Assembly: GCA_951406725.2 (NCBI GenBank)
Contig: OX597817.1
Coordinates: forward strand, 158,224,001 to 158,288,000
Length of the DNA: 64,000 nucleotides
Source: Octopus vulgaris
Lineage: Eukaryota
Direction of reading: 5' to 3'
Below are positions 656-59,814 of this stretch, piece by piece. The translations under genes were made by a program, and so were the position numbers. The notes below the pieces were generated by a model that had not been told where the DNA came from, made no database searches, and saw nothing but the letters and a program-made list of their open reading frames with translations. Numbering within the stretch: position 1 is the stretch's first letter; each line of letters opens with the position of its first letter.

Positions 656-1082
656 ATCATATACAGTGTATAAGAAATATATGCTAAGCATGAAAATCAC
701 ATCTTGTATATGGCATCCATTTCCTACATCACACAAATGTGCTCTTTCTAAAGTGTTTACCACGACACTTCTCAGCATTTCAAGCTTCAGTGATGATTTC
801 AGCCCACATATTGGTCTTCAGCTGTTGGACTGTCCGAGGCTTGTTAACATGAGATAGCTCATTACAAAGAAATCAGAAGTCTTCAGATCTGGAGAATGCA
901 TTTGCTAGCTTATATTGTAAGTGCAGGAAATTATTTTTCTCTCAAAAATTTAACTGAACAGTTAGATTGCTAGGCAAGCTGCCACTCCATCCTATGTCGT
1001 ATTTATTCTGGAACTGTTGGGAGTAAGAAATTTTTTATCACAGACCAATATTCATATCCTGCAACAGTGACAAGATTCTTAA

Positions 1083-3697
1083 CCCTTTAGTGTTCAAACC
1101 GGCCATATCCGGCCAGAATTAATTCCCCTTTATTTGTTCAAACCGGCCAAATCCGGCCGTAAATGACCACTCTACGAAATCGCTAAAAAAATAAACAAAT
1201 CACGTTATTAAATTCTCGTAGCTTTGAGATAATGCGAGATGAAGCCTTTCCCGCCTTTATTCAAGTATAAATACTGTGAAATTGTTTCGACCACATGGTT
1301 ATTTCCACGTGTGAAGAGAACTGTATACGTTTGTTGTGAAAAAAATGGCGTCAGCAAGTAGCGATTCCGATTTTGAAGGCTTTACCATTGATGATGTTGA
1401 AGATATCAACGAAAACAAAAGTCTTTTGACTTGGGATGAGTCTGATATTGATATCAGCGATTATTCGTCGGACGAAGAAAATTTCGATGACGAAAGTGAA
1501 GAAAATGAAAGTGATGAAAACGATAGTGTAAACAAGGCAACATGGTCGAAAATTACGACACCAGTAACAATTTCTGATTTTACAGAAAACACTGGTCCAC
1601 AACATGATTTACCTCCTGATGCTCAACCACTGGATTATCTATTTTTATTTTTGCCTCAAAGTTTTTTTGAAAATGTTGCGGAGCAAACGAACAAATATGC
1701 CCAACATTTAATTTCTGTTCGTGGAAGGAGCGATCCGCTATGGCTGCCAACAAATACTGTGGAAATAAGAGCATTTTTTGCGATCAACATTATGTTTGGA
1801 GTCAGACAGCTTCCTCGACTGTGGAACTATTGGAGTCCCGATGTAAGGTATGGCGATCCATATATTTCAAGCATCATGTCGAAGACGAGGTATTCGAAAA
1901 TATCTCAGTATTTGCATTTGACTGATTCTTCCAATGCCCCCAACAAAAACGACCCAAACTACCATCCCCTGTACAAAGTACGTCCGGTAATTGATTTACT
2001 CGTACATAATTATAAAACTATTTATTTACCTGGAAAAAATCTCAGTGTAGATGAAGCGATGATAGGATTTAAGGGCAGAGTACATTTTCGGCAGTACATG
2101 CCTGCCAAACCTACTAAATGGGGGATCAAGGTATGGGAAGTTTGTGAATCGGAGACAGGATACTGTGTAAACTTCGATGTTTACACAGGTAAGAAATATA
2201 ATGCGAAAAGACCACATGGATTGGGACATGATGTTGTATGGTCTCTTACACAACCTTTTCACCATCAGCACCGACACCTCTATTTCGATCGTTTTTTTCT
2301 TCAGTGGCTTTGGCAGAAAATCTTGCACGTGTAAGCACTTACATGTGCAGCACTGTTATGGGAAATCGTAAAGGTTTACCCCATGAAATAAAAGCAAAAT
2401 TTAAAAAAAGAGGGGACATTTTGCAAATGCAAAAACAAAATTTGTTAGTTACTGCATTTAAAGACAAAAGGCAGATTTTATTTCTGTCTTCTAATGAACA
2501 AACTGGTGTTGGGGCTGAGGGGAAACCCCTCGTGAATATTTGCTACAACAAATATATGGGTGGCGTAGACAAATCCGACCAATATCGGGCATATTACCCA
2601 GTTGGTCGACCTGGGAAGAAATGGTGGAGGTACATTTTGTGGTTTTTAGTTAATTTAACTATAGTAAATGCCCACATTGTTTACGTAAAAAGCCACAAAG
2701 TACCTCCACCACCGAAAGACTACGACCACTTGAAATTTCGGGTTGACATTGCATCTCAGTTACGTGAGGGCTTTTCTTCTAGAAAGCACAGAGGTGGGAG
2801 AAAAGCAAAATTAACTGAGGTGGATGTCAACAGAGAAAATGTTGACTTCCATCAAATGGAAAAAATAGATGGAAGAAAAAAAGTGTGCAGACTGTGTTCG
2901 CAACAAAAAAGAAAAACTGCGAAAGGGTACCAGATCGAAACATCCTACATGTGTTCGTTTTGCCAAGTGCCCTTGTGTAAAGGGTGCTTTGGACAATTTC
3001 ACGACAGAAATATGCCATAAATGTATAATTTTACATATTCCTTTTAATTTTATAATATAATATGTGAAAGTGAGAACTACATATTAATTTTCAGTATGTT
3101 ACACACCTGTATTCACCTTTGTCTCACCTGTTAATGAGATTTTTTTATTAGATGCATTCTGTTACGTGAATGAATTCATTAAATTGTATAAGAGTGCATA
3201 GCCAATGGTATATTGACTAGTAAAAGAGTTTTTGTACTTTCTTTTCAATGATGATGTTTGAATGAAATATAGAAAAAGAGTAAAATCTTGTACTGATTAC
3301 ACCTGTATTTTAATTCATTCAAATTAATGTACCTCATCTTGAAAAATGTAAAATTGTTGGCCGTTGACATCTGGGATAATTTTAGCAGCAAATCAAACAG
3401 GTAAGATGTATTAAGAATATGAATTTTAGTGTTTATTCATAATGTTATTGTTTTTACACCTGTTAATTAAGTTTACCTGCCCATAAAAGTCAAATGTAGT
3501 GAGAAAGATCAGCTAAAATTACGTAATTATAAACCACTGGCATTTAAGCACCCATTTACAAAGTTTCAAATCTGTATGTAGAAAATTAACAAAGTTACAA
3601 GTAAATATTGTGGACACCCCACTTGAACCTGAATAAATCCAAATTAATCTGAACAGATAAGCATTACATTTGACAAGTTAATCTGAACACTAAAGGG
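1083..3697 (+). mobile_element. Full-length piggyBac DNA transposon (2615 bp)
   Basis: TTAA at 1079-1082 and 3698-3701; perfect 14-bp TIR CCCTTTAGTGTTCA (1083-1096) / TGAACACTAAAGGG (3684-3697); subterminal direct repeats GTTCAAACCGGCCAWATCCGGCC at 1092 and 1136; encloses a transposase. Confidence 0.95.
1345..3020 (+). CDS. piggyBac (PGBD-like) DDD transposase, split by one frameshift at 2292-2298
   Basis: Acidic N-terminus; motifs SVDEAM...KPTKWGIK, YFDRFF(SS), YNKYMGGVDKSDQ; C-terminal CxxC...CxxC..LC..CF...H domain; ORFs 1336..2334 and 2238..3020 fuse if one T is added to the T7 run. Confidence 0.9.
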
Positions 3698-5221
3698 TTA
3701 ATGTGGTTTTCAAAAAAGAGTCCAGTTACTTCTCCCATCATAAACCCATACCAGACTGTACACTTAATGGGGTGCAATTTCCTTTGACGAATTACACTAA
3801 GATTTTCAGAACCACCAAATCTTGCAGCTTTGTTTTCGTAAAGAAGCCATTCAAACAAAAATGTGCTTCATCTGACATTACCAACTTGTGGATAAATTCA
3901 GGATCTCCCTTTGCCAATCCTTGAAATCTGACTGCATATTATGATCTGTGGGCATAATCTAAGGGCTCCAGCTATTGCACTAACTGCATTATATATGCAA
4001 ACATGTTCATGATTTTAAAAATGCATCAGGGCAACATCCAGAGGGGCTCAAGTTGATGTCCTTGAAACTTTCCTTTACAAGCTCAACTATAGCTTCATTC
4101 CTAACCAAGTGAGGCCTGTTTCTGTGGAAGGTTGCTTATTGAACGCCATTTCACAAAACAACTTATCAAGCATCTAATTATTGATTCCCTTATAGACACT
4201 CTTATGCCATAATGACAATGATGTGCTTATTGCATCAGAATTATTGATCCTTGGTTTTGATAAAATTTCACAATTTGTGTTTGCTGTTCAGTCATAAGTT
4301 TTTTTTTTCTATGGTTAATCTCCAAAGTTTTCTTTATAGTAGTCCTGAGTACACCATTCTGGGCTTTTGGATGGATGGATGGAGATAGCTGGCAAGTTCT
4401 GAATTAGTTTCTGAATTAGGCCAGACATGAACTAACCACTGAACTAAATCAATCCAGCAAAACAGAAACACAGAGTTTTCAATACAGTATAATAAATAAA
4501 ATCTTATGGGTCTTTCACATCATGTACTGATAAGGGCTGGAAATATCTACTTTTGGAAATTTGTACAAGAAATAAGAACCACTCTTACTAAGAACTGTAA
4601 ATGTTAGATGAGTATATCAATTTTTGTAAAAATAAATTTTTAAGATATTTGGAAAAAGTCAAATTTCTTAATAAGCTTTTGGAGTTACTTGTGTTACATT
4701 CCTGGCAATGACTACAATTCCTTCAAAGAATATTTTGAAACTACAGTTAGTGATTGTAGAGAAAAATTTCTGGGGTTTTTTCTTTACCCCATAAAATGTT
4801 GAATGGGCAAACTACTCGGTCAATTATCTCCATCTGGCCTTACTGAGGAAATGATAAGGGACCAGCTGTTTTGATTTACTGTATTTAAGAAGAGAAGTCA
4901 AGTGAAGTAAAATTGTAGTCATCCATACATACGGGTACGTCCTTTACAGGTGCCAGTACCATGTAAATTGCACTTGTGCAGGTGCTATGTAAACACACCC
5001 ATACCAGTGGAACATAAAAAGCACCCAGCACACTCTGTAAAGTGGTTGGCATTAGGAAGGGCATCCAGCCATAGAAACCATGCCACAACAGACAATTGGA
5101 GTCTGGTCAGCTCCTGTCAAACCATCCAAACCATGCCAGCAGGAAAACGGATATTAAATGAGGATGATGAAGATGAAATCAAAATCTAAGTTCAATGAGA
5201 AATTTAAAAAAAAATTCTTAC

Positions 5222-7520: not shown

Positions 7521-8523
7521 GTGTATCACATGTATATGGGCATATTTGAAGCTGTGAATTCATCCCTTCACAATTCTTGTGACTTCCTTTTGAACATTCA
7601 CTAAGGCAGCAAAGAGCTACTGTCTTGAACATAAAACAGTAAGAGACCCAGAAAATTAATAACCTTTTTTTTCACATGTATTGAGAACATTTATCATTTG
7701 TACAAATGAACATTTATGTATGTGTGTGTTTTATTGAACGCTTTCTTATTCATTCAACATACAGCAATGAATGTGTGAGTATGAACTCCCAAAGTTCATC
7801 AGCTTTTGCTCCTTTTAGGACCATAAGCAATATCTGATAGAAGTCTCCAGACATCACTGTTACTCCTCTTATTTGAGATCCATTTTCATTCTAGTCTGGA
7901 ATGTTGCCCTGTTTAGAGCCTCCAAAACTCTTGTGTACCATTATGCATTCATTCAAGACAATTATTTTGACAGCTCTTAACAAAAACTCTCCAGTTCCTA
8001 AATCACACCTCCCTTGGTGCATTCAATGAGAATAGTAGTTTCATTAACATGTAACTTAGGGTTCTAAGCAATCTAGAAATTCCACATGATAGTGAATTAT
8101 TTCTTCTTGATCCCCAACAGTGTATATTGATTTGTAGGTTTGACTTTCTTTAAAATGCCTGCAGCAGCTGTTGGCTGATACTGCTACACATTGTCATTTA
8201 TGCTTTAGGTAACAGATGTTGTTGGCTAGGGAACAGCTTGGATAACAATTTGTTTGTTGTATTAACGAATGTGCTTTATAATGCCAGAAGGAAATTTTCC
8301 CTCCCCAACTAGTTAGAAACTTTTCACAGACTGGCTAGACAACTCACTGCCAAAAATATGAAACTTATTTGTAAACAGTCTGAAAATTTTAAGAACTTCC
8401 AAAGTTCATCAGCTTTTGCTCATTTTAGCATCACAATCAAGATCTAATAGAAATCACCTGACATCACTGTTATCCTTATTTGAGATCTATTTTCATTCTA
8501 GTCTGGAATGTTGCCCTCTTTAA

Positions 8524-8735
8524 CCCTTTAGTGTTCGGATTACTTTGTCATATGTAATACTTATTTATTCACATTGTTTTGAATTAATTGTGCCTTGTCT
8601 CATAGCTTCAAGATTTCGATGACGTGATTATTTATCTTTAGAATGACATTGTAGGGTTGGTATGAGAGGCTGAATATCATAAGTTTGAACATAAAAGAAG
8701 GATAATATTCTGGCCAGATATGGCCGGTTTAAACA
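8524..8735 (-). mobile_element. piggyBac MITE (family 1), one terminus eroded
   Basis: TTAA|CCCTTTAGTGTTC at 8520-8536; GGCCAGATATGGCCGGTTTAAAC at the other end. Confidence 0.8.
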
Positions 8736-8936
8736 AAGCCTCCAAAACTCTTGTGTACCATTAAGCATTCATCCAAGACAATTATTTGACAGCTCTTAAA
8801 AACTCTTCAGTTCCTAAATTCTTGACAATGTTACAACCAAGTCCATCACTTATGCTCTTGTCCAGTAATCCCTAGCCTTCTTTGCACATTGACCAGTTTC
8901 ATGCAAGAAAATTTTTCCTCTGACCAGGAGAATCTG

Positions 8937-14013: not shown

Positions 14014-15149
14014 TTAAGTTAATACTCATATTACCAGGTTTCATTGAAGATTTAATTGAAACGTGAGCACTTCAGCATGTAAATCTTTTAAAATGGTATT
14101 ATGGAACAAAGAGTGATCTCATGTTGCTTCTGAAAGGGTTAAAAAGTTGATTAACAATAGTATGAAATCATCTTTTCAATACTTTGAAATGAAGCAGTAG
14201 TTTAAATTCTAATTCAACAGACATCCCACAAGTCTGGTTAGAACTTGATCCATATTAAATATCAACTAGCTTGAAAAATTTAATGATTTTTTCCCTGGGG
14301 TATCATCTATCTGACATTTATTCAAATTACTACCAAATAACCTGATCAAAGTGATCATAAAATCAATTAAGGTTCAATATCCAATTGCCTTGAATTTTTT
14401 TTTTTTTTTTTTTTTACTATTTTGTCAAGGAAGAAAGGGCAGTGACTGTAACCACTTTTATTTTCAGAGAATCAAAAGACTGGTGGGATATTATTCTCAA
14501 GCAGATGCCCTGACCCAAAGTGCCAGCTGGTGGTATTAAACCACTCACAAACTCAGAATGGAAAGAGCCAGAGCAAATATTACACCATCTCATGCAACAC
14601 TCTAGACAGACAGACAGACACTTTTCATCTCCAAAAGGATGAAAAGAGAAAGCCCTTCCACACACACACACAAAATACCACAGGGCATTTTTTTTCTTAT
14701 GCTGTAATAACTGCTAACTCATCAATTCTTAAGTAGCAGTTGGACACAGTGGAATTTCAGTGTAAAAACTCAAAATTAGTGCCACAAGCATTTTGTCTGA
14801 TGCATCAACAATTCTGCCACCTAGTGACCTTAATGCCTGAAATTTAGGGGTAGAGGGCTAGAAGTTGAAAGAAATGCTGCTAAGCATTTTGTTCGGTATG
14901 CCACAAGTTCTGCCAGTTCCCAGCCTTCTTAATGATAACCCTTTTTACTAAAGGCACAAGTCCTGAAATTTTGGGGGAGGGAACTAGTTAATTACATCAA
15001 CCCAGTATTTCAAAGGTAATTTTATTAACCCTGAAAGGATGAAAGGCAAAGTTGAACTTGGCAGAAATACCAACAATACAAAGTGGGAAATTTTAAAAAA
15101 AGTTTTCAACATTATTTCTTTTCTTTTAATATATATATTCTATTTTTAA

Positions 15150-15370
15150 CCCTTTAGCATTTAAACCGGCCATATCCGGCCAAAAGTATTCTGCCTGTTT
15201 TATGTTCAAACTGGCCACATCTGGTCTCTCACACCAACCCTACAATATTGTTTAAAAAATTAACAGCTACCTCATCAAAATCTCAAAGCTACAAGATATG
15301 GCATGATTAGTTCAAAACAATGTGGATAAAAAAGGATTAATTTTGGGAGAATAATGCGAACACTAAAGGG
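15150..15370 (+). mobile_element. piggyBac MITE (family 1), complete, 221 bp
   Basis: TTAA at 15146-15149 and 15371-15374; CCCTTTAG...CTAAAGGG; collinear with both ends of the 1083-3697 element. Confidence 0.9.
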
Positions 15371-17172
15371 TTAAAGAGAAAAGGTATTGGGCATGGATAA
15401 GATAAAAGCTGCTCTCTCAGCAGAGTAAATAAAAAAAAATGTCAGGTTTGGTAACAGCATTTCATTAACAATGTTCTTTACCCTGTACACATGTATACAC
15501 ATAAATTACATTTTGCAGCAGGAAAGACATAAGAATTTATAAAATATGAGTTATTATAAGTTACCACTAATAGGCATATGATAAACATAGATGAGACATT
15601 TTCTAATATAGTAATGCATTAAGAAGCAAATAAATGAACTATGTACATGTAATACCATCTGAATCTAAACCTAATTATTAGATGTCATTTTAGATAAAGA
15701 TTAGATTCTACTGAAACCTAATAACAGTATATGATCTTTATTGTATGTTCACAAATTTAATGGAACTTAATTACTTTTAATTCATGAGAAAAACAAACTA
15801 TGTTTTCAGCTATCTAGAAAGATAACATATTTTCACTTTTGCAAATGAATGACATCAATAATGCTCTATGATGATCACCATTGTTGTTTAAGATCTATTC
15901 TCCATACTTGCATAGGCCAAATAGAATTTGTTGAGGCAGACTTTCTTCAGCTAGATGCTGCTCTTCCCTTTGCCATCCCACACTTGTTTCCAAGCAGTGT
16001 AATATTTTCCTATGGCTGGACATATTTTCATGGAAGACTGGAAATGAACAACATCACTTGAATGATGATGGTGATCCTTTTTACAACCACTACATGGGTG
16101 TTAAGATAGAGTACACGGAAAAACTCACACATAAATGAGGGAGAGGGGCATGGCAGAATAATAATCAATAAGAAAAATCAAATTCTTCTTTCTTTTCACA
16201 GAGCAATGACAACCAGTACTTTTGTATTGGTACTTCCTAGACTTCAAGAGCAACAAAATTAAACTCATAACTCTTTCTTGACATATTAAGGGCACCCAGC
16301 ACATTCTGTGGAGTGGAAGGGCATCCAGCCATAGAAACCAAGCTAAATCAGACTGGAGCCTGGTACAGCTCTCCAGCTTACCAGATTCAGTCAAACCGTT
16401 TAACCCATGCCAGCATGGAAAACAGACTAAATGATGATTCTGAAACTACATCCATAGAATTCATTATTTAAATACAATTCCTAACACTTTAGCTCTAGTT
16501 TCTCCAGAGGTAACAGCTCATTAGACACCAATATCGAAATTAAACTCTTTTTACAAAATAAGAAAACCTATAGACTGAAGAAAGCAAATTTATGGTCAAA
16601 GACCGGACATGACAAAGATGCTATTTAGTAGTGAATTAAATATTTTGAAATACTTCTTACACACAACAGTGGTGCTCTAGCAATGCCAAAACCAGGTCAA
16701 AGGAAGAAGTAAAATAGTGAACCAAATGTTATGAAGTTACCAATACAATAAATACAGCACCTCACAATCCTTTATAATTATTGTAATACTAGCAGAGTTA
16801 CCCGGCGTTGCCAGTGTTACATGCAATTGAAGAATTAGACTTTTCTGTAATACCTGTTTCAAATTTCATCAAACTTGCAGATGAGGGTTATTTCCCTCTT
16901 TACACACCCTAAAAAAATTGTAATCGTGCCACATGTATCCCATACAACTGATTTTTATGCACACATTCCACAATTCCAGTCTTATAGAAGTTAAAAATGG
17001 AAGTCATGGAGCTCTAAAATGTGAGAGTTAAGCCCCTATTGGGGGTGGGCGTCTTAATCTCAACCAGAGAAGTTGAATTGTTGAGAATCTTTTTAACTTG
17101 GGTCTTATATCTATTGTTTGAATTTCTTTGAAATAGGAAATATATGTTCACAGACACACATTCTCAGTTTTA

Positions 17173-18452
17173 GGTACTTGTCAAGTGTAGTGGTCCCGGT
17201 TTCGCGCGCGCGCCAGACGTAATTCAAAATTGTTCATTTTGATATGGCTCAAGAGACATGATAGACTTTTAAATGGAGATTGAGAAAAATGGTTTCAATT
17301 AGAAAAGCAACATTTCTAGAAAATAGTAAATTGAAGTGTGAACACAGCACCTTACAGAGTATAAGTATATGACATTTATTTTAAAAATTTAACTTCATTT
17401 GTTTTATATTCTAAATAATTTGCAATTTCAAAAAATATATTAATTTTGCGTTTTTTAATTTGATAAATTCTACGGAATAATTTTGCGCGTTTTTTGATAA
17501 ATTCTACGGAAAGAATTTAGTGCGAAAAATTTATACATTTATACACAAAGACCTGTTGAGGCAAGCGAAGTTGATATCGAACCTCATCCGACGACAGGCA
17601 CCCATGCCAACCCCCTTTGCTTGCGAAGACATGTTGGGGCAAGTGTGGCACCCGGCAGATGCCAGGACCCCTGGAATGGTGGTACGTAAAAAGCACTATC
17701 CGAATCGTGGCCGATGCCAGAGCCGCCTCGACTGGCACCAATCCGACCGTGGCCGTTGCCAGCCTCGCCTGGCACCTGTGCGGGTGGCATGTAAAAAGCA
17801 CCCACTACACTCTCGGAGTGGTTGGCGTTAGGAAGGGCATCCAGCTGTAGAAACATTGCCAGATAAGACTGGAGTCTGGTGCAGCCTTCTGGCTTCCCAG
17901 ATCCCCGGTCGAACCGTCCAACCCATGCTGGCATGGAGAACGGACGTTAAACGATGATGATAAGAAATTAATTCATTAAGTTTACCAAATTATATACGTC
18001 TGTAAAAAAAAAAAGTTTCACAAATTATATACGTTCGCGTTTGTGTAAAAAAAATTATTATTCAAGTTTTATAAATTATTTACTTTGTTCAAAAAATATT
18101 ATTAATATTAATTAATTTTCAAGAATTATTTAATTTATATAATTAATTCATTAATTTTATTCTGTAAAATAGTAATTAATTCATTTATCTGTAAATCCGC
18201 GAGGAAAGCGACTATGTAATTTTTTTGTGTAAAATTGAAAATGTTATATATACACACACACACACATATATATTTTTAGTGAAATCCAACACCTTTTTGT
18301 CTTAAAAAGCAGAAAGGTATCTAAAAAAATCCGTTTTTTTTGGGGGGGGGGTTTAATGCGCATGCGCGAATCGCGCATGTCACCTCGTAGGATCTCGAGT
18401 ACCTACGTCTGGCGCGCGCGCGAAACCGGGACCACTACACTTGACAAGTACC
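17173..18452. mobile_element. Non-autonomous DNA transposon with 49-bp TIRs and 8-bp TSD (Merlin-like)
   Basis: Perfect TIR GGTACTTGTCAAGTGTAGTGGTCCCGGTTTCGCGCGCGCGCCAGACGTA (17173-17221 / 18404-18452); TSD CAGTTTTA (17165-17172 / 18453-18460); GG...CC termini. Confidence 0.85.
17548..17961 (+). mobile_element. RTE 3'-end repeat (family B) nested in the Merlin-like element
   Basis: Family B core and ACGGACGTTAAACGATGATGAT tail. Confidence 0.8.
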
Positions 18453-18846
18453 CAGTTTTATATATATATAGATAACAGCAGTATTTTGAAATACAAGGAC
18501 TGATATTCTGATCAAATTAAACTGATTTGGTTGTAACCTCAAGTTATGATTTCTATTAGTCAACATATCTAAATACATTCAATTGTTTCCATCCACAAAA
18601 AGGAACATTAGAAAAGAGTAATAAATCAAGGAACGTATTATTAGTAAACAGCCGATACTTTCATACCAACTCAAATATGAAATACAACGGTCGTTATTCA
18701 AATCGAAACTGATTAGTACGTAGTTCAGTTTTATAACGCCGTTGGTGAACAATAGCGTCGGTAGTTACGTTTTTAACGAGATAATCATTGGATTACTGCA
18801 TTTCTGACGGTAGGGCGACAAATTAAATTCTACAACTTAATACAGA

Positions 18847-19002
18847 CAGTAGCGTAGCTGAAGGAAGGTGTCCGCTCCAAGCGATGCTTTTATAGGGATG
18901 GAACTTTTTGGTTTGCTGTATAAGATGGTATAGACCCCAGGATAAGGTGGGGAGTAAACTCAGTGAATCTCCTAAGCGACACACAAACTGGTTACACCAC
19001 GG
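18847..19002. mobile_element. Possible old hAT-like MITE
   Basis: Imperfect termini CAGTAGCGTAGC / GTTACACCACGG; no clear TSD. Confidence 0.3.
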
Positions 19003-19251
19003 AAATATTGTGTGAGATTTCGTTCGAAAGAGAACTGTATTTATTTTTTCTCTCGGAATTTACGTCTTTCGTCAATACATCAGCGAAAGATATATAGGCA
19101 TGCCTATACACACCTACTTATCCAAGATGCCACGCACTGAGAGAGAATTCAGAACAACGTTTTTTGGCGATCCTTCGGTATATGTACCGTAAGTGGCTTT
19201 GTTTACATTTCTGAAGATAACAGGAACCCTTTTCTCCCACCCTAACCCTCC

Positions 19252-19283
<32 letters not shown>

Positions 19284-20025
19284 CTTTCTTGAAATGTATC
19301 CGGTACTTCCGGTACCTATACCGAAGTTAGGCCCATCATAAAAAGGACTTAATCATTCAGTCACGTTTGTTGTTTAGGTTAACAATAAAGCACGTGGTTC
19401 AACAATCTAGTATGTCATTATTTAATCTTTACTTGGCACTCATAAATGACAAGCGATATCACGGTTTAACATTTTGACTTCATTGTGTTAGCTTGTAGAC
19501 AACACACGTTAAAGTTCCAGAATGAACCTTGATTGCGGTATTGGCATAAACTAAATGGAATTACATCGATCCCTTGGAAACAAGGAATGCGTGTAAGTTG
19601 GGATAAAAATCACAGACACCTTTTTACTCATCTGACGTGCTCGAGTGTGCGACCTGAGTTGCGCGACACTGCAGTCTGAAAAACACGAAATAAATATCGT
19701 AATCTATTGTGTCATTAACCAATGGTGCTTTGATAACTCGCGGGAGTTATGAACAACATCACTTTCAAGTTTAAACCGCATGGTTTATTTTCGTAGGCTT
19801 TCGGTTGCAATAATGATATGTAAATTTTTAGACTGGCCACTAGCGCGGTTATCGTGGTAGGATTTATGTATTTAATTATCCCAAAGCTGCAGAGGGAAGG
19901 TAACAAAATAACTAAACCCCTAACATCGAATCCCAGCAATTGGAAAGTCTTCACTGAAATAAACTTTATGAAGTTATTTTTAATATAGATTTATTTTAAA
20001 ATAACATTAAGGGTACACTCATGTT

Positions 20026-24032: not shown

Positions 24033-24228
24033 TTAATTTTGGCAGTTTGCCATATTTTCTTAATCTAGTTTTACAGGATTATTTCAATCACTCTAGTCTC
24101 TCTCCTATAAGCCATTGTTCTTTTCTAACAATGCTATCTATACATCAAGATTGTAGTTGAAGCCTTTTCTGAATACAAACTGTTCTATTTAAAATGATAA
24201 TGTCATTGTCAGATTGTTGATAATTTTC

Positions 24229-24449
24229 ATCTTTAGTGTTCAGATTACTCTGTTAAATGTAATGCTTTTTTATTTAAATTGTTTTGAATTAATCATACAT
24301 TACCTTATAGCTTTGAGGTTTCAATGATGTGATTGTTTATTTTTAGACTGTCAATGTAGGTTAGGTGTGAGAGGCTAGATATGGCCAGTTTGAATATAAA
24401 ATATGTAGAATATATTGGGCCGGATTTGGCCAGTTTAAACACTAAAGGG
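24229..24449 (-). mobile_element. piggyBac MITE (family 1)
   Basis: CTTTAGTGTTCAGATTAC...AAACACTAAAGGG|TTAA. Confidence 0.8.
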
Positions 24450-24528
24450 TTAATTTATTTCCACAGGTTTTGTCAATCTTTTGTTGTGCTTTCTTTAGGG
24501 CTTTATTCAGAATTGAAGTCTTAAGTTA

Positions 24529-32900: not shown

Positions 32901-34395
32901 TCATCATCATCATCGTTTAACGTCTGTTTTCCGCGCTAGCACGGGTTGGACGGTTCGACTGGGGCTGCTCCAGGCTCCAGTCTGATCTGGCAGAGTTTCT
33001 ATGGCTGGATGCCCTTCCTAACGCCAACCACTCCGCGAGTGTAGTGGGTGCTTTTTACATGCCACCTGCACAGGTGCCAGGGGGGTCTGGCATCGGCCAC
33101 AATCGGTTGGAGCTTTTAACGTGCCACCGGCATGGAAGCCAGCCAACAACCACGTTTGGATGGTGTTTTTAAATGCCATCGGCACAGAAGCCAGTCGGGG
33201 CAGCGCTGGCATCGGCCACATTCGGATGGTGCTTTTTATGTGCTACCGGCACAGAAGCCAGTCGAGGCGGCGCTGGCAACGGCCACGTATGGATGGTGCT
33301 TTTTATGCCACTGGCACAGGTATCACAACTACTATTTCCATTGATATTTATTTCGATGTTCATGTACTTGACTCAACAGGTCTCCTCAAGCACAGCGGGA
33401 CGTTCTGGGATCCAGGGTACTTTGAATGGGCAGGGGGCTATGCGGAACTGGTGCATGAAGCAGCCCGGGTCTTTGCAGTCACAGTATATCTCCAGAGATC
33501 TTGGTCCTTCGCCATTGCCTCAGTGAGGCCCAACGCTCTGAGGTCATGCTTGACTACCTCATCCCATGTCTTCCTGGGTCTACCTCTCCCCCTGATACCT
33601 CCAACTGTTTGGGAGTGGCACTTCTTCACACATCTCTCCTCATCCATCCACAGTACATGACCATACCATCGCAAGCGTCGCTCTTGCATACCACATCTGA
33701 TGCTTCCTATGTCCAGCATTTCTCTCAGGGTGCTTACACTGTCGTGCATGCACACTGACATTACTCATCCAGTGGATCATGCTAGCTTCATTTCTTTCAA
33801 GTCTACGCATGTCCTCTGCAGTCACAGCCCATGTTTCACTACCGTGAAGCATGGCAGTTCGCACACATGCATCATACTATCTACCTTTCACTCTGAGCGA
33901 GAGACCCTTTGTTGCCAGTAGGGGTAGGAGCTTTCTAAACTTTACCCAGGCTATTCGTATTCTAGTGGTGATACTCTCTGAGCATCCACCTCCACTACTA
34001 ACTTGGTCACCCAGGTAACGGAAACTATCAACTACTTCTAGTTTCTCCCCCTGGAGTGTGATGGAATCTGTTTTCTGAGTGTCTGTGGTGTCTATTGTCC
34101 CTGTGCATCTGCCGCACATGAAAGCTATCTTATCAGTTAATTTCCCTTTGATGTTGCTGCACCTCTTATGCGTCCATAGCTTACATTGGGTGCATCTTAT
34201 GGAGTTTCTACCTACACCTTTCCTACAGATTGAGCAGGGCCACCTGCCCGAGGGTTTGTGTGCTGAGTTCGCCTTTCTGCTTACAATAACTTTGGTCTTT
34301 GCTACATTTACTCTAAGGCTCTTTGATTCTAACCCTTGTTTCCACACCCAAAATTTCTTTTCTAGTTCCGGTAGTGATTCTGCTATGAGAGCCAG
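32901..34395 (-). mobile_element. 5'-truncated RTE-clade LINE (RT C-terminus, PHD-type finger, 3' UTR, (ATG)n tail)
   Basis: LALIAES...LRVNVAKTKV...LEVVDSFRYLG...MLHGSETW...RRLRWYGHV...RGRGRPRKTW; a stop at 33877 and a frameshift near 33760; the 3' UTR is identical in type to family B repeats. Confidence 0.9.
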
Positions 34396-34727
34396 AATTC
34401 TAGGATTTAATATTTCGGTTAGCAATGAACATCAAATTACTTACCTTCATCGACAAGTTTCATACAAGTGAAAAGTATTACTTCTGAAAAAAAACAACAA
34501 CTATTGGCGGCGAGAATATACAAAAATCAGTTCAATGAAGTTCACAAAACAGAATGAAGTTGCATAGTTTGAAATAAGAATTTTTAACATTTTGGGACTT
34601 GCCAAAAAATGGAGAGGAGAACACTGTTTTGTGAACTTTAGTGAGCTCTCACTAGAAAGCAGCTTACTAGCAGATTGTTGCTAGATTTTAGCCGTAAAAT
34701 AAAGATGTTCTCTAAAGACTGAATACA

Positions 34728-40861: not shown

Positions 40862-42153
40862 CTAAAAGAAAAAAAAAAATATATTTGACAGAAAGAATAG
40901 AATTTGAATTTAAATGCAAAACTTGTCAGTAATTTACTGCTCTGTTTAATGAGTGTAATATTTTGGATACTCATATTTTTTAAAAAGCTTCACTAAACAT
41001 GTGTCATAGCAATATAAATGGTACAACTTTTAACCTGCTGGCTTGCATATGAAAAGCATACTTGAGAGTATGGCTAGATGGTTAATTGTTTGAGGTGTCC
41101 TATGTCATTGTGAGTAGACATAAACATTTCTTCAGGCCTCTTCAGCCATGACTGATTGAAACTGGGTCAAGGCTGTGACTGCTGGATGGAGATGGCTGCA
41201 CCAGTGTCTCACTAGTACTTATTACAGCTGAGTACGCTGAAGCAATGTGGAATGAACACGTCACTTTGCCCAGAAACTGAACCCATCACTTTATGATCAT
41301 GAGACAATTATGTCCTAGCCACCAGGTTACGCATATTAGTATGCATCACAATGCAAACAAAACAGATCATGTTGAAGAATAATGAAAACAGGATACGTAA
41401 AGGAAAATTCTTCAGCCAGGCAGCTGGCTGCAATACAAGCGATTTTTCAATAATGGTTTTCATATATTGGTAGCAATGGATTTTGTCTTAACATGTAATT
41501 GGCAGTGAGCACATATTAGTGTCAAAGCACAAAGGAGTAGAAGTGTGCCTCTAGCATTCTCAAGACCATTGCCCTGTGATTTTTCAACCACTACTGACAT
41601 ATTTGTGTTTTGGAACAGTACACATGTGGGAAATATAATCTCGGGACAAATACCACTGTTAATTTGCCTTTTTGCAGTGTATTTGCTTTGAGTATGATAT
41701 ACAGAGGCTAAGATGATTTATATGAGCTAGCAGTAAATTCTTATCCAAACAGCTTAAGATGTTCACTCTAAAAATCAGCAAGAAAATGAGCAAAGTAAAA
41801 TGATGGCTGCAAACTGAGAATTAATGTTTTCTTAATATCTATTGCAGAAACAACACTGATACTGAATTTTGAAGAAATAAAAAGTGCTTAAACACAGTGT
41901 TTCTGTATCTTGTCTTTTGTTATATTAGTGTAGAAACAAACTGAAGCCTACTCTGAAACAAAAGTAATGAACATAAGGAAATGAATTGTTCAGTGAATCT
42001 CAGCCTCCTACAGGCCATACAAACAGCACCAGAACCTTTTTGGTTTTTGAGAAGTAAATGATAGGTGAAACAGGAGAACATCTCATCAAGGGTTTTCTAT
42101 TGATTGGAAAGGGAAGGAAACAGTTTCACATCAATTCTACAACAGTACTTTAA

Positions 42154-42374
42154 CCCTTTAGTGTTCGCATTATTCTGCCAAAATTAATGCTTTTTTATCC
42201 ACATTGTTTTGAACTAATCATGCATTATCTTGAAGCTATGAGATTTTCATGAGGTAGCTGTTAATTTTAAAAACGATATTGTAGGGTTGGTCTGAGAGAC
42301 CAGATCTGGCCAGTTTGACCATAAAACAGGCAGAATACTTTTGGCCGGATATGGCCGGTTTAAATGCTAAAGGG
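42154..42374 (-). mobile_element. piggyBac MITE (family 1), complete, 221 bp
   Basis: TTAA at 42150-42153 and 42375-42378; close reverse-complement copy of 15150-15370. Confidence 0.9.
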
Positions 42375-42782
42375 TTAAGTAAATCCAACAAAGTTAATGG
42401 ATTTCTTGTTGAATATGCCCTAGTTAGTCCCATATGAATTTCTCTCAAACGTCAAGAAAGGTAGGGAAGAAGTTAAACCACTGTTGTACTAATGAAATAT
42501 ATTAACCCTTTTACTGTGGAAATCAGATATAACTACTCAAAGTTTCATTGCCCTTAACTGCAGAAAGCAGCTTTTATATACCAATTTATCTTTTGTTGAG
42601 GAACATCATGTCTGAAACTGTCTTTTGTAAAGAAATGTCAAGTTTATAAAGGCAGCTTAACTGGCAGAAAATACTAATTTGACTTTTTGCTAGATATTTA
42701 ATATCATTGCTGGAAAAATCAGGAGATTTCATTTCACAGTTAAAGGACCAAAAGAAGTAAAATACTCATCAGGCCTAATTCA

Positions 42783-49020: not shown

Positions 49021-49262
49021 CTACAAAAGACAAAAGAAACATGTGATGTTGTAGAAAATCCCAATCAGTTGCACACCTTTTTACATTAAGAGAAAGCTAT
49101 CTATTGACACCAAAAATAGAGTGAAATTTAACAGGGTTAGTTTTGTATTTTTGATTGCAGTTTGAATACAACAGAAATTAAAGGACTAATTTGGAAAATG
49201 GTAAAATCAGTATGGTTTGGGAGCATGAAATGTTGGATGTAAAGATAAGAAAGCAGGTTTAA

Positions 49263-49420
49263 CCCTTTTATTATTCAGATTACTTTCTCAAACGTAATGC
49301 TTATTTATCCAAACTGTTTTGAATTAATTATGCATTATCTCATAGCTTCAAAATTTCAATGATGTTATTGTTTATTTTTACAATGACATTGTTGGCTAGG
49401 TGAGAGAAGCCAGATCAGCA
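49263..49420 (-). mobile_element. piggyBac MITE (family 1), partial
   Basis: TTAA|CCCTTTT...TTCAGATTAC...GAATTAATTATGCATTATCTC. Confidence 0.65.
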
Positions 49421-49699
49421 GTTATGGTGGGGAACCACTGGGATTGATCCCAGCCTGGTACTTATTTTATCTTACTCTTTTACTGGTAAATTATAGAGAT
49501 GTAAAGAAACCAGTACTGGTTATCAAATAGTGGTGGTGGTGATAGGACACAGACACAAACATACAAATATATGCAGACAGGTTTTCACAGTTTTCATTCA
49601 TCAAATTTACTCACAAGGCATTAGTCAGCCTGGGGCTGTAGAAAATACTTGCCCAAGGTGCCATGCAGTGGGACTGAACTCAAGACAATGCACAAGACA

Positions 49700-58110: not shown

Positions 58111-58531
58111 TACATTGCTCAAATTTTTCAGTTATTGTAAATGCCAGAGCCATTCTAACATTACAAAGCTTGATATAATAACTGAAGACACGTAAATAAC
58201 TTGTAGATTATTCAGAGACTGACTCAAGAGGCTGGCTATTAATTATCAACAGTACATGCATTTCCTTTAACCTGTCAAATGTCAAACGTAATGCTTATTT
58301 ATTCACATTATTTTGAATTAATCATGCATTATAGCCTTGAGACTTTGAACACCTTGTATGCATCAAAATGGAGAAGATACATGTATTTTAAAGATTTGAA
58401 TTGTAAAACGGAAGCAGCCCTTTAAACCATTAACCACATATAGTCAACCTTTCGCAAATATGTAATCCAAGCTTGCTGAAACTTGCACCATTGATAGAAG
58501 CCTTCTTTAACAGAAAGATAGGATCTCTTAA

Positions 58532-58750
58532 CCCTTTAGTGTTCTGATTATTCTATCAAACATAATGCCTATTGATTCCCATTGATTTGAATTAATCATG
58601 CATTATCTCATATCTTCAAGATCTTGATGGTGTAATTACTTAATGTAGAATAACATTGTAGGGTAGGTGTGAGAGCCTGGATCTGGTCAGTTTGAACATA
58701 AAACAGATCAACTATTTTGGCCGGATATGGCCGGTTTAAATACTAAAGGG
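58532..58750 (-). mobile_element. piggyBac MITE (family 1), complete, 219 bp
   Basis: TTAA at 58528-58531 and 58751-58754; CCCTTTAGTGTTC...TACTAAAGGG. Confidence 0.9.
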
Positions 58751-59814
58751 TTAAAATAAGCAGAAGAGATTCAAGTCAGACAAATTGAGGTTTTTCATTA
58801 GAGGTTTCATAATCAGAGTGCTGATAAGTACTAGAACTTAATGAGTTATCTTAACGGTGGCCCATCCCTCTAGTGGTACATATTGCTACAAATAGACTGT
58901 TTTGGCTGTAAAACACCTTGGTGCTTGAATAGCAGCATTCCATAAACCTGTTCTCATAAAAATATAATCATTATACTATACTTCTATGTATCAAAAAAGG
59001 ACTGTTTATTGAAGTGTGTGTGTGTATGGGAAGGGGTTATCTCAGCATTGGGCAGTGGTGGAGAAATTGAAGCTGTTAATAATAATAATAATGGTAAAAA
59101 CGAATTTGTGACACTCCTTGTTGCATTAAAATTTCAGTTTATTAAGCAATCTCACTGAAAGTAATCTAAATCTTGATGTAGGTTAAAAAATTGTATACAA
59201 TTCTTTTTTTTTTGTTTTATTTCACATCAGCACTACTTGACAACTGGTGTTAGTGAGTTTATGTCCCTGTAACTTAGTGGTTTGGTAAAAGAGACAGATA
59301 GAATAGGTACCAGACTTAACAAAAAAAAAAAAAAAGCCCAAAAAAGAAGCACTGGAGCTGATTCATTAGGCAAAAATCATTCAAGGCAGTGCCCCAGCAT
59401 GGCCACAGTCTGACGACTGAAACAAGATCCATTTTCCACAGCTACCTGAGTTTACTGAATCTGCCAATACAATGATCAAGGAAGGACATTTTTCCTGTTG
59501 TTGAGTAACTGCAGTCAGTTTCGATTTTGCAGACTCATGGAAGGCAAAGATCAAACGTTTCAAACATATAAAACATACCAGTGTGCCCTGATTGTGTAAG
59601 GTGTAGCTCAGTAGCCTGGGTGTGTTGCTATATTCCTTATTGTGTCTACCGTGGAAGTTGATTCGATGTACCCACTTGACACAAGATAGTTATGACTCAG
59701 TATTTATTAAAACTAATTTATAACTTAACATAAAATGGCTTCAAAATTTTATTATAATCAGATTCTCTACATTGTATTACTGTATTTATGAAACAAGGGA
59801 CATGGCTATATAAG

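What the first reader, a model, noticed from the sequence alone, without database searches (positions are those of the whole stretch)
1079..3701. Near-intact, young-looking piggyBac disabled by a single missing T in a slippery homopolymer
Seen: TTAA TSD, perfect TIRs, all three catalytic Asp motifs and the Cys-rich C-terminal domain, with no in-frame stops once the two ORFs are joined. The only lesion is CGT TTT TTT CTT (2290-2301); one extra T restores YFDRFFSS, the conserved piggyBac second-Asp motif. CpGs look well preserved compared with the decayed repeats around it. Inference: this is (a) a homopolymer assembly error hiding an active cephalopod piggyBac, (b) a very recent inactivation, or (c) less likely, -1 recoding, since T_TTT_TTT is an in-frame X_XXY_YYZ heptamer and ORF2 is in the -1 frame. 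A native mollusc piggyBac would be a candidate transgenesis tool and a horizontal-transfer candidate.
Basis: partly seen in the sequence, partly recalled or inferred. Interest (0 to 1): 0.8.

Follow-up and report, generated by a model that had tools for sequence, protein, structure and literature searches.

The report
Young broken octopus piggyBac transposon copy
This is a recently inserted, frameshifted copy of an ordinary cut-and-paste transposon in an octopus; its sister copies have the missing T, so there is no special ribosome trick, and the family (not this copy) is the only candidate for a native cephalopod gene-delivery tool.

Summary
The anatomy is real: TTAA duplication, 14-bp perfect TIRs, DDD triad, HC6H-type zinc finger, and one frameshift at T7 (2292-2298). 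Closest relatives are Octopus proteins (77-90%). Public-run contigs carry T8 at several times single-copy depth (125/180, 277/327, 351/554, 16/50), and 163 of 189 homologues read through in frame, so programmed -1 recoding is refuted as a family mechanism. The T-run is a slippage hotspot: another O. sinensis copy has the same -1 break and O. bimaculoides copies the +1 break. The T is not the only lesion: this copy also has His at a position that is Asp/Asn in 121 of 121 homologues. The insertion is young: a closely related organism (0.3% flank divergence) has the empty TTAA site. The lineage is old in octopus (six 64-94%-alike MITEs in this window), with no sign of recent horizontal transfer. 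Verdict: most likely a genuinely broken young copy (~0.7; assembly error ~0.27) of a recently active family with about 3-7 near-identical copies. New member of a known kind.

The parts
1079..1082 (.). Left TTAA target-site duplication
   Evidence: empty allele with a single TTAA in run X5 (record 17)
1083..1096 (+). Left 14-bp terminal inverted repeat
   Evidence: (I4, 100% incl. TSD)
1091..1158 (+). Left-end subterminal 24-bp direct repeats (1091-1114, 1135-1158; 96%), candidate transposase binding sites
   Evidence: D4; role inferred from piggyBat end architecture (PMC11707139 passages)
1266..1271 (+). TATAAA, candidate TATA box (consensus match only)
1345..2334 (+). ORF1: N-terminal 318 aa of the transposase plus 11 out-of-frame residues (329 aa); acidic N-terminus with 8 S/T-x-x-D/E sites
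1963..1965 (+). His207 codon; family state Asp (second lesion)
   Evidence: table 3 (G in 97-100% of depth in 4 of 4 runs); (D 117, N 4, H 0 of 121 homologues)
2050..2052 (+). First catalytic Asp (D236, VDE; T. ni D268 equivalent)
2287..2289 (+). Second catalytic Asp (D315, FDR; T. ni D346 equivalent)
2292..2298 (+). T7 run; family state is T8; the frameshift
   Evidence: table 4, 44
2323..2350 (+). 12-bp hairpin 24 nt downstream of the run; weaker with the family-majority base at 2327; not a canonical frameshift stimulator
2232..3020 (+). ORF2 (-1 frame): transposase continuation from 2298, 240 aa
2568..2579 (+). Third catalytic Asp (D409) and the following conserved Asp (D412), GGVDKSD; T. 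ni D447/D450 equivalents
   Evidence: motif per PMC2533014 passages
2850..3002 (+). C-terminal cysteine-rich domain, H503-C515-C518-C537-C540-C545-C548-H553 (HC6H, piggyBat type)
3632..3637 (+). AATAAA, candidate polyadenylation signal (consensus match only)
3640..3700 (+). Right-end subterminal repeats (3640-3666, 3674-3700; 78%), unlike the left-end repeats
   Evidence: D3
3684..3697 (-). Right 14-bp terminal inverted repeat
3698..3701 (.). Right TTAA target-site duplication
830..1078 (-). Host sequence, distal half: decayed Tc1/mariner-like transposase remnant interrupted by the insertion
   Evidence: (frame runs through the empty TTAA)
3702..4300 (-). Host sequence, proximal half: decayed Tc1/mariner-like transposase remnant
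   Evidence: Atlas features 0.90 to Tc3/Transposase_1 clusters (a lead); no Pfam hit
15146..15374 (+). ~229-bp non-autonomous derivative (MITE) with the same TTAA-CCCTTTAG ends
42150..42378 (-). MITE of the same family (94% to the 15 kb copy)
58528..58754 (-). MITE of the same family
24225..24453 (-). MITE of the same family, right end decayed
8520..8748 (-). MITE of the same family, left tip decayed
49259..49490 (-). MITE of the same family, left part decayed

Best explanation
A full-length copy of an Octopus piggyBac family (HC6H/piggyBat-type transposase, 558 aa in the intact state) jumped into a TTAA inside an old mariner-like remnant, probably within the last ~1 million years. The family's Arg-Phe-Phe-Ser codons right after the second catalytic Asp form a T8 run that is prone to replication slippage; this copy lost one T, so it makes at most a 329-aa fragment without the third Asp and the zinc finger, and it also carries His in place of a near-invariant Asp207. 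It is now a non-coding passenger whose intact ends could still be moved in trans by a sister copy. Shown: anatomy, T8 and Asp207 as the family state, filled site in two studies of organism A and empty site in organism B, recurrent breaks at this run in other Octopus copies. Inferred: that T7 is in the animal's DNA rather than the assembly, that the fragment is inactive, the date, and mobilisation in trans.
For: T8 contigs at depth 125.3 of 179.5 (X1), 276.7 of 327.2 (X3), 351.3 of 553.7 (X5), 16.3 of 49.5 (X9), against single-copy flank depth of about 17-21, 61-68, 51 and 3, i.e. about 4-7 copies' worth. 163 of 189 homologues that reach the motif read through in frame with good identity; most of the other 26 also stay in frame at the motif and end later. 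Same -1 break (FDRFFLQWLW) in a different O. sinensis copy, P0191, 93% identical, with Asp207 and older-subfamily residues; +1 breaks at the same run in O. bimaculoides P0024 and P0025, probably P0015; in-frame in P0032 and P0006/P0190. The assembly is base-accurate in the unique flanks: 0 differences and no gaps over 449 and 529 bp against X3, 0 over 450 and 1 over 591 bp against X1 (table 8). In X1, depth 30.3 at 1963 lacks the family base, about one to two copies' worth, compatible with His207 being real. Empty site: one X5 contig joins 1078 to 3698 at full flank depth, with 3 substitutions in 925 bp and one 14-bp indel. CpG o/e 0.83.
Against: No listed contig is shown bridging T7 at this locus; Logan contigs drop rare variants, and the depth lacking the extra T (54, 51, 202, 33) cannot be assigned, since X5, which lacks this insertion, has such a residue too. 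P0191 comes from a gene model on another assembly and could itself be an assembly error. The effect of His207 is untested (PMC2533014 names D239-Y259 as a conserved region but did not mutate D239 in the passages seen). An empty TTAA is also what precise piggyBac excision leaves, so it dates a presence/absence difference, not strictly an insertion.
Confidence: 0.68

Rival explanations
1. Homopolymer assembly error: the locus really has T8 and an open 558-aa frame; whether it is active then depends on His207 and the other replacements.
For: T8 is the only state shown positively in contigs of 4 of 4 runs; under-called homopolymers are the typical long-read error (established knowledge); no stop or second frameshift.
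Against: Gap-free agreement of about 1 kb of flank with X1 and X3; no indel listed at the other 7-mers 1662, 2403, 2876 (9 rows of that table not shown); natural breaks of both signs at this run in other Octopus copies; His207 would remain.
Confidence: 0.27
2. Programmed -1 ribosomal frameshifting (or transcriptional slippage) on U_UUU_UUU makes full-length transposase at a controlled low level.
For: In-frame heptamer; a -1 slip gives the same junction peptide as T8; the T7 state recurs in an O. sinensis copy and a similar break in a Pinctada model, P0008; a hairpin lies downstream (2300-2380 z -2.2).
Against: T8 is the family state and 163 of 189 homologues are in frame; +1 breaks also occur; six other in-frame heptamers in the ORFs; the stem starts 24 nt downstream rather than the recalled 5-9 nt, ranks only 24 of 322 windows, and weakens from -14.8 to -9.9 kcal/mol with the family base at 2327. 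No piggyBac recoding case among the 15 listed of 28 papers (titles and abstract starts only). Incidental low-level leak on T7 alleles is not excluded.
Confidence: 0.03
3. Recent horizontal transfer of the element into octopus from another marine invertebrate.
For: The Octopus clade (6 rows, SH-aLRT 100) sits with an unnamed record P0004 (99) inside a 17-row clade with bivalve copies (96), at about 60% identity, so an ancient transfer is plausible.
Against: No non-Octopus named hit above 69% on ORF1 or 63% full-length; relatives in O. bimaculoides, O. sinensis and O. vulgaris; six MITEs with the same ends at 64-94% pairwise identity in this window alone. The tree is the quick version, 60 of 188 proteins then held.
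Confidence: 0.03

Closest known systems
Octopus 'piggyBac transposable element-derived protein 4-like' gene models (O. sinensis P0002, P0003, P0191, P0192; O. bimaculoides XP_014770740.1, XP_014784407.1, XP_014767697.1; O. vulgaris P0126)
   Same: Same family: 77-93% identity over the aligned parts.
   Different: All are fragments of 110-295 aa; none is full length. They are transposon copies labelled by similarity, not the domesticated mammalian PGBD4 gene.
piggyBat transposase, Myotis lucifugus (PDB 9C0F)
   Same: Best solved relative (E 2e-30 and 4e-19); DDD core, same zinc-finger spacing, repeats at the left end that the right end lacks (PMC11707139 passages), acidic N-terminus with CK2-type sites.
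   Different: Distant sequence; different TIR and repeat sequences; piggyBat is intact and active, this copy is frameshifted and untested.
Trichoplusia ni piggyBac (PDB 6X67/6X68)
   Same: TTAA target, DDD triad (D268/D346/D447) and D450 equivalent (PMC2533014 passages).
   Different: Its CRD has a different fold from the piggyBat type (PMC11707139 passage); only the N-terminal core and catalytic parts align well.
Recently active PiggyBac families of O. vulgaris (PMC13282606, Table 1: 6 families, 474 insertions; supplement: 36 families, 15.6 Mb)
   Same: Recent piggyBac activity in an octopus is already reported; this element may belong to one of those families.
   Different: No sequences were seen, so membership could not be tested; that paper's passages do not describe a transposase, its lesions or activity.
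Intact bivalve-type homologues (Ostrea edulis P0010, 563 aa; unnamed P0004, 560 aa)
   Same: 61-63% identity, same length, FDRFFSS in frame, Asp207, HC6H finger.
   Different: Separate families in other hosts, too divergent for recent transfer.

Membership tests
piggyBac superfamily DNA transposon | TTAA target-site duplication | tested here: met
   single TTAA at the empty allele
piggyBac superfamily DNA transposon | Short terminal inverted repeats starting with CC after TTAA | tested here: met
   14-bp perfect TIR; TTAACC motif used in PMC13461360 methods passage
piggyBac superfamily DNA transposon | RNase H-like DDD transposase (PF13843) with three catalytic Asp | tested here: met
piggyBac superfamily DNA transposon | C-terminal cysteine-rich domain | tested here: met
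   PF13842, H-C6-H ligands conserved in 54-72 homologues per column
autonomous, active piggyBac copy | Single uninterrupted transposase ORF | tested here: not met
   T7 frameshift in the window; whether real at the locus is about 0.7
autonomous, active piggyBac copy | Conserved core residues intact | tested here: not met
   His207 against Asp/Asn in 121 of 121 homologues; functional effect untested
autonomous, active piggyBac copy | Excision and integration activity | not testable with these tools
   needs a cell assay; presence/absence difference between organisms A and B shows past mobility of the element, in cis or trans
programmed -1 ribosomal frameshift site | In-frame X_XXY_YYZ heptamer | tested here: met
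   2292-2298, but six others occur in the ORFs
programmed -1 ribosomal frameshift site | Stimulatory structure 5-9 nt downstream (spacing recalled) | tested here: not met
   stem begins 24 nt downstream; 2303-2360 z -1.15; not kept by the family base; pseudoknots not modelled
programmed -1 ribosomal frameshift site | Split frame conserved across family members | tested here: not met
   T8 majority; 163 of 189 homologues in frame
programmed -1 ribosomal frameshift site | Transframe product detected | not testable with these tools
   needs reporter or proteomics
domesticated PGBD gene | Single copy, fixed, without TIR/TSD | tested here: not met
   multicopy, TIR and TSD intact, absent at this site in organism B
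recent horizontally transferred transposon | Near-identical copy in a distant taxon | tested here: not met
   protein searches only; no eukaryote DNA collection available
recent horizontally transferred transposon | Tree incongruent with host phylogeny | tested here: inconclusive
   Octopus clade nested among bivalve copies in a quick tree; compatible with ancient transfer

The most novel reading that the evidence does not exclude
One of the about 3-7 near-identical sister copies is a fully intact (T8, Asp207), transcribed master that is still mobile in the Octopus vulgaris group and is the transposase behind a very abundant ~225-bp MITE family; it would be a native cephalopod transposase working where moth piggyBac gave no signal in cuttlefish. 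Hints: contigs with T8 and Asp207 in a run guessed to be RNA at depth 12-29 against 3 for the flanks, and a presence/absence difference at 0.3% flank divergence. No contig is long enough (longest listed wholly inside the element 242 bp) to show an intact copy.
Probability: 0.35. Interest if true: 0.55.

Novelty: new member of a known kind. Interest (0 to 1): 0.3.

Why it matters
The striking readings (recoding, a hidden active element, recent horizontal transfer) do not hold, so the locus itself is ordinary. What remains is practical: it defines a recently mobile Octopus piggyBac family, its ends and its MITE passengers. A 2026 preprint (10.64898/2026.09.23.753964, abstract and passages seen) reports no fluorescence with moth PiggyBac in dwarf cuttlefish while Minos (64% of embryos) and Sleeping Beauty (22%) worked, so a native piggyBac could add footprint-free excision but would not open a closed door; and genome mining has already yielded 13,693 piggyBac subfamilies, about 5% from molluscs (PMC13461360 passages). 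The filled/empty site is also a usable lineage marker.

Tried and rejected
Own-genome search: no genome is held for this window, so sister copies were assessed through run contigs and protein records. No RNA holder is listed as such; X9 is only guessed to be RNA, so expression is not shown. Depth lacking the extra T at 2291 was considered as evidence for T7 and rejected as unassignable (X5 control). No full-length Octopus transposase was found in the protein searches; repeats are often masked in annotation, so this is not evidence of absence. The window's ORF1 is not in the protein collection by exact sequence. Pfam did not recognise the host remnant pieces. Mitra et al. 2008, recalled as testing more aspartates, is not held, so no mutational data on the D239-equivalent were seen. 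Supplements of PMC13461360: 4 files searched, no 'octopus', 'Ostrea', 'Pinctada' or 'cephalop'; one PDF unreadable, and the sequence set itself was not seen, so this family may already be in it. Literature searches for a described octopus piggyBac or piggyBac recoding found none in the listings. Three look-ups in earlier scan findings returned nothing. The careful tree did not finish; the quick tree is reported. An apparent excess of window-G/family-A sites among the 40 rows shown was noted and not pursued (167 rows hidden, subfamily mixing). No structure prediction was run, as it would not decide any rival.
Full report
Observation. The element spans 1079-3701 including both TTAA copies, with perfect 14-bp TIRs. 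Left and right ends carry different subterminal repeats. ORF1 (ATG 1345-2334) and ORF2 (2232-3020, -1 frame) split Pfam PF13843 at profile positions 215/211, and ORF2 ends in PF13842. The best solved relatives are piggyBat and T. ni piggyBac. Read through the break the protein has 558 residues with D236, D315, D409 and an H-C6-H finger, each conserved in the homologue alignment. T7 lies at 2292-2298 as stated. CpG o/e is 0.83 against 0.44 elsewhere; 8 of 116 same-length windows reach it. The host is an octopus by best hits (O. sinensis 89%, O. bimaculoides 77-90%; an O. vulgaris fragment); the species was not determined.

What the sister copies have. No genome is held. One search listed 20 runs holding the stretch, from 9 studies and four organism labels; 4 were laid (contigs only). 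The added T behind 2291 is carried by contigs of depth 125.3 of 179.5 (X1), 276.7 of 327.2 (X3), 351.3 of 553.7 (X5) and 16.3 of 49.5 (X9, guessed RNA). Single-copy flank depth is about 17-21, 61-68, 51 and 3, so T8 stands at about 4-7 copies' worth; other near-identical interior contigs give 2.5-5. The tool warns that summed depth is not a copy number, so these are rough. Among proteins, 163 of 189 that reach the motif read through in frame with good identity; of the other 26, most stay in frame at the motif and end later, and about seven break at or next to it.

The run is a slippage hotspot. O. sinensis P0191 (XP_029647274.1; 93% identical, with Asp207 and older-subfamily residues, so a different copy) ends in the same -1 tail; O. 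bimaculoides P0024 and P0025 enter the +1 frame at the same run and P0015 probably does; P0032 and P0006/P0190 are in frame; a Pinctada model (P0008) breaks there while another (P0028) does not. These are gene models, so ascertainment and assembly errors are possible. Breaks of both signs are what replication slippage gives (established knowledge) and not what a programmed site gives. The heptamer is unremarkable: six more in-frame heptamers occur in the ORFs. The downstream hairpin begins 24 nt away, ranks 24 of 322 windows, and weakens from -14.8 to -9.9 kcal/mol with the base that 81-84% of DNA depth has at 2327.

The T is not the only lesion. Of the 40 best-supported substitution rows shown (167 hidden), 15 of the 20 I evaluated fall in the coding region. 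Several are subfamily variants shared with sisters (X9 has contigs identical to the window over 1278-1519 and 2070-2285). Others are absent or nearly absent from all four runs: position 1780 (Ala146; family Thr), 2793-2794 (Gly484; Octopus homologues Thr) and 1963 (His207). At 207, 117 of 121 homologues have Asp, 4 Asn, none His; both solved transposases have Asp six residues before the Arg of the (K/P)VR motif (T. ni D239), read from the alignments with the gap shifted by me. PMC2533014 (passages) names D239-Y259 as a conserved stretch but shows no mutation of it, so the effect is inferred. In X1, depth 30.3 at 1963 lacks the family base, compatible with the window allele being real.

Real or assembly error. 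For real: the unique flanks match X3 with no difference over 449 and 529 bp, and X1 with 0 over 450 and 1 over 591 bp, without gaps; no indel is listed at three other 7-mers in the coding region; the site breaks naturally elsewhere. For error: no listed contig demonstrably bridges T7, contigs drop rare alleles, and the depth without the extra T is uninformative because X5, which lacks this insertion, shows it too. I put real at about 0.7.

Age and mobility. X1 and X3 (organism A, two studies) have unbroken contigs across both junctions at flank depth, which suggests both chromosomes are filled (inference). In X5 (organism B) one contig joins 1078 to 3698, leaving one TTAA, with 3 substitutions in 925 bp (0.32%, 95% range 0.07-0.95%) and a 14-bp indel. 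With about 0.36% per million years, taken from the 33 My = JC 0.12 pairing in PMC13282606, the alleles split about 0.45 (0.1-1.3) My ago; a rough figure. The empty site restores the reading frame of a decayed Tc1/mariner-like remnant on the minus strand (family assignment is a lead and recalled motifs). Precise excision in B would look the same. End depth is over a thousand times flank depth, and the window holds six ~225-bp MITEs with the same ends at 64-94% pairwise identity, so the lineage has been moving passengers in octopus for a long time.

Horizontal transfer. A quick tree of 60 rows (59 of 188 proteins then held, chosen as named or long and close, plus the window) puts the window in an all-Octopus clade (SH-aLRT 100), sister to unnamed P0004 (99), within a clade of bivalve copies (96). 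The nearest full-length non-Octopus relatives are 57-63% identical; the full scan of 1.84 billion representatives gave nothing closer over the length of ORF2 than 58-67%, apart from an O. bimaculoides fragment and one unnamed 106-aa piece at 78%. Recent transfer is not supported; ancient transfer among molluscs is open.

Mechanism. Shown: a standard piggyBac inserted at TTAA; family state T8 and Asp207; breaks recur at the run. Inferred: slippage removed one T at this locus; the 329-aa product lacks D409, which is needed for excision in T. ni (D447, PMC2533014 passages), and the CRD, so it is inactive; the intact ends can still be moved by a sister transposase.

Literature seen. PMC13282606: abstract, passages, Table 1, supplement search (recently active PiggyBac: 6 families, 474 insertions). 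10.64898/2026.09.23.753964: abstract and passages; its supplements are closed. PMC2533014, PMC11707139, PMC13461360: passages; four supplement files of the last searched, one unreadable. Searches listed no description of this family or of piggyBac recoding; subscription papers and Repbase/Dfam were not searchable, and the family may already be in those libraries.

Verdict. New member of a known kind; interest 0.3. The locus is most likely a young broken copy; the remaining value is a possible intact sister as a native cephalopod transposase (probability about 0.35).

Noticed in passing
window 8520-8748(-), 15146-15374(+), 24225-24453(-), 42150-42378(-), 49259-49490(-), 58528-58754(-); fragment near 58280-58322: Six ~225-bp MITEs with the piggyBac's TTAA-CCCTTTAG...CTAAAGGG-TTAA ends, about one per 10 kb, 64-94% alike; run depth at the element ends suggests a very large family.
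   Followed up: partly
window 17173-18452: A second young-looking element: 1280 bp, perfect 49-bp TIRs starting GGTAC, 8-bp target duplication CAGTTTTA, CpG o/e 1.29, no transposase ORF seen, with a common repeat nested near 17584-17946. Merlin-like by recalled rules (GG ends, 8-9 bp TSD); not tested.
   Followed up: partly
window 830-1078 and 3702-4300, minus strand: Decayed Tc1/mariner-like transposase remnant that hosts the piggyBac; single-copy at 90% identity in the runs.
   Followed up: partly
window 18600-20000: CpG-rich stretch (o/e 1.18) outside any recognised TIR element; could be a promoter/first exon or another young repeat.
   Followed up: no
window 33877-34431(-): 184-aa frame with a PHD finger (Pfam E 1.5e-5) in a context resembling a LINE reverse-transcriptase region (recalled); probably a retroelement fragment.
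   Followed up: no
window 1234-2807, 1105-1211, 2279-2970, 3299-3369: Contigs that skip these parts point to internally deleted derivatives of the family; the 1234-2807 joint is at single-copy depth in X1, X3 and X5.
   Followed up: no
window 1038-1051: 14-bp indel in the left flank distinguishing organism B (run X5) from the window.
   Followed up: no
protein P0192 (O. sinensis): A close sister copy broken differently, shifting into the ORF2 frame about 50 nt upstream of the T run and stopping at a CGA-type codon position.
   Followed up: no
protein P0194: A 567-aa homologue labelled as from a Methylococcaceae MAG on a 3-kb contig; most likely animal-host DNA binned with a symbiont (inference).
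   Followed up: no
proteins P0026, P0141, P0143, P0082: Ray and lamprey homologues (47-50% on ORF1) group among marine-invertebrate copies in the quick tree, a possible old transfer unrelated to this locus.
   Followed up: no
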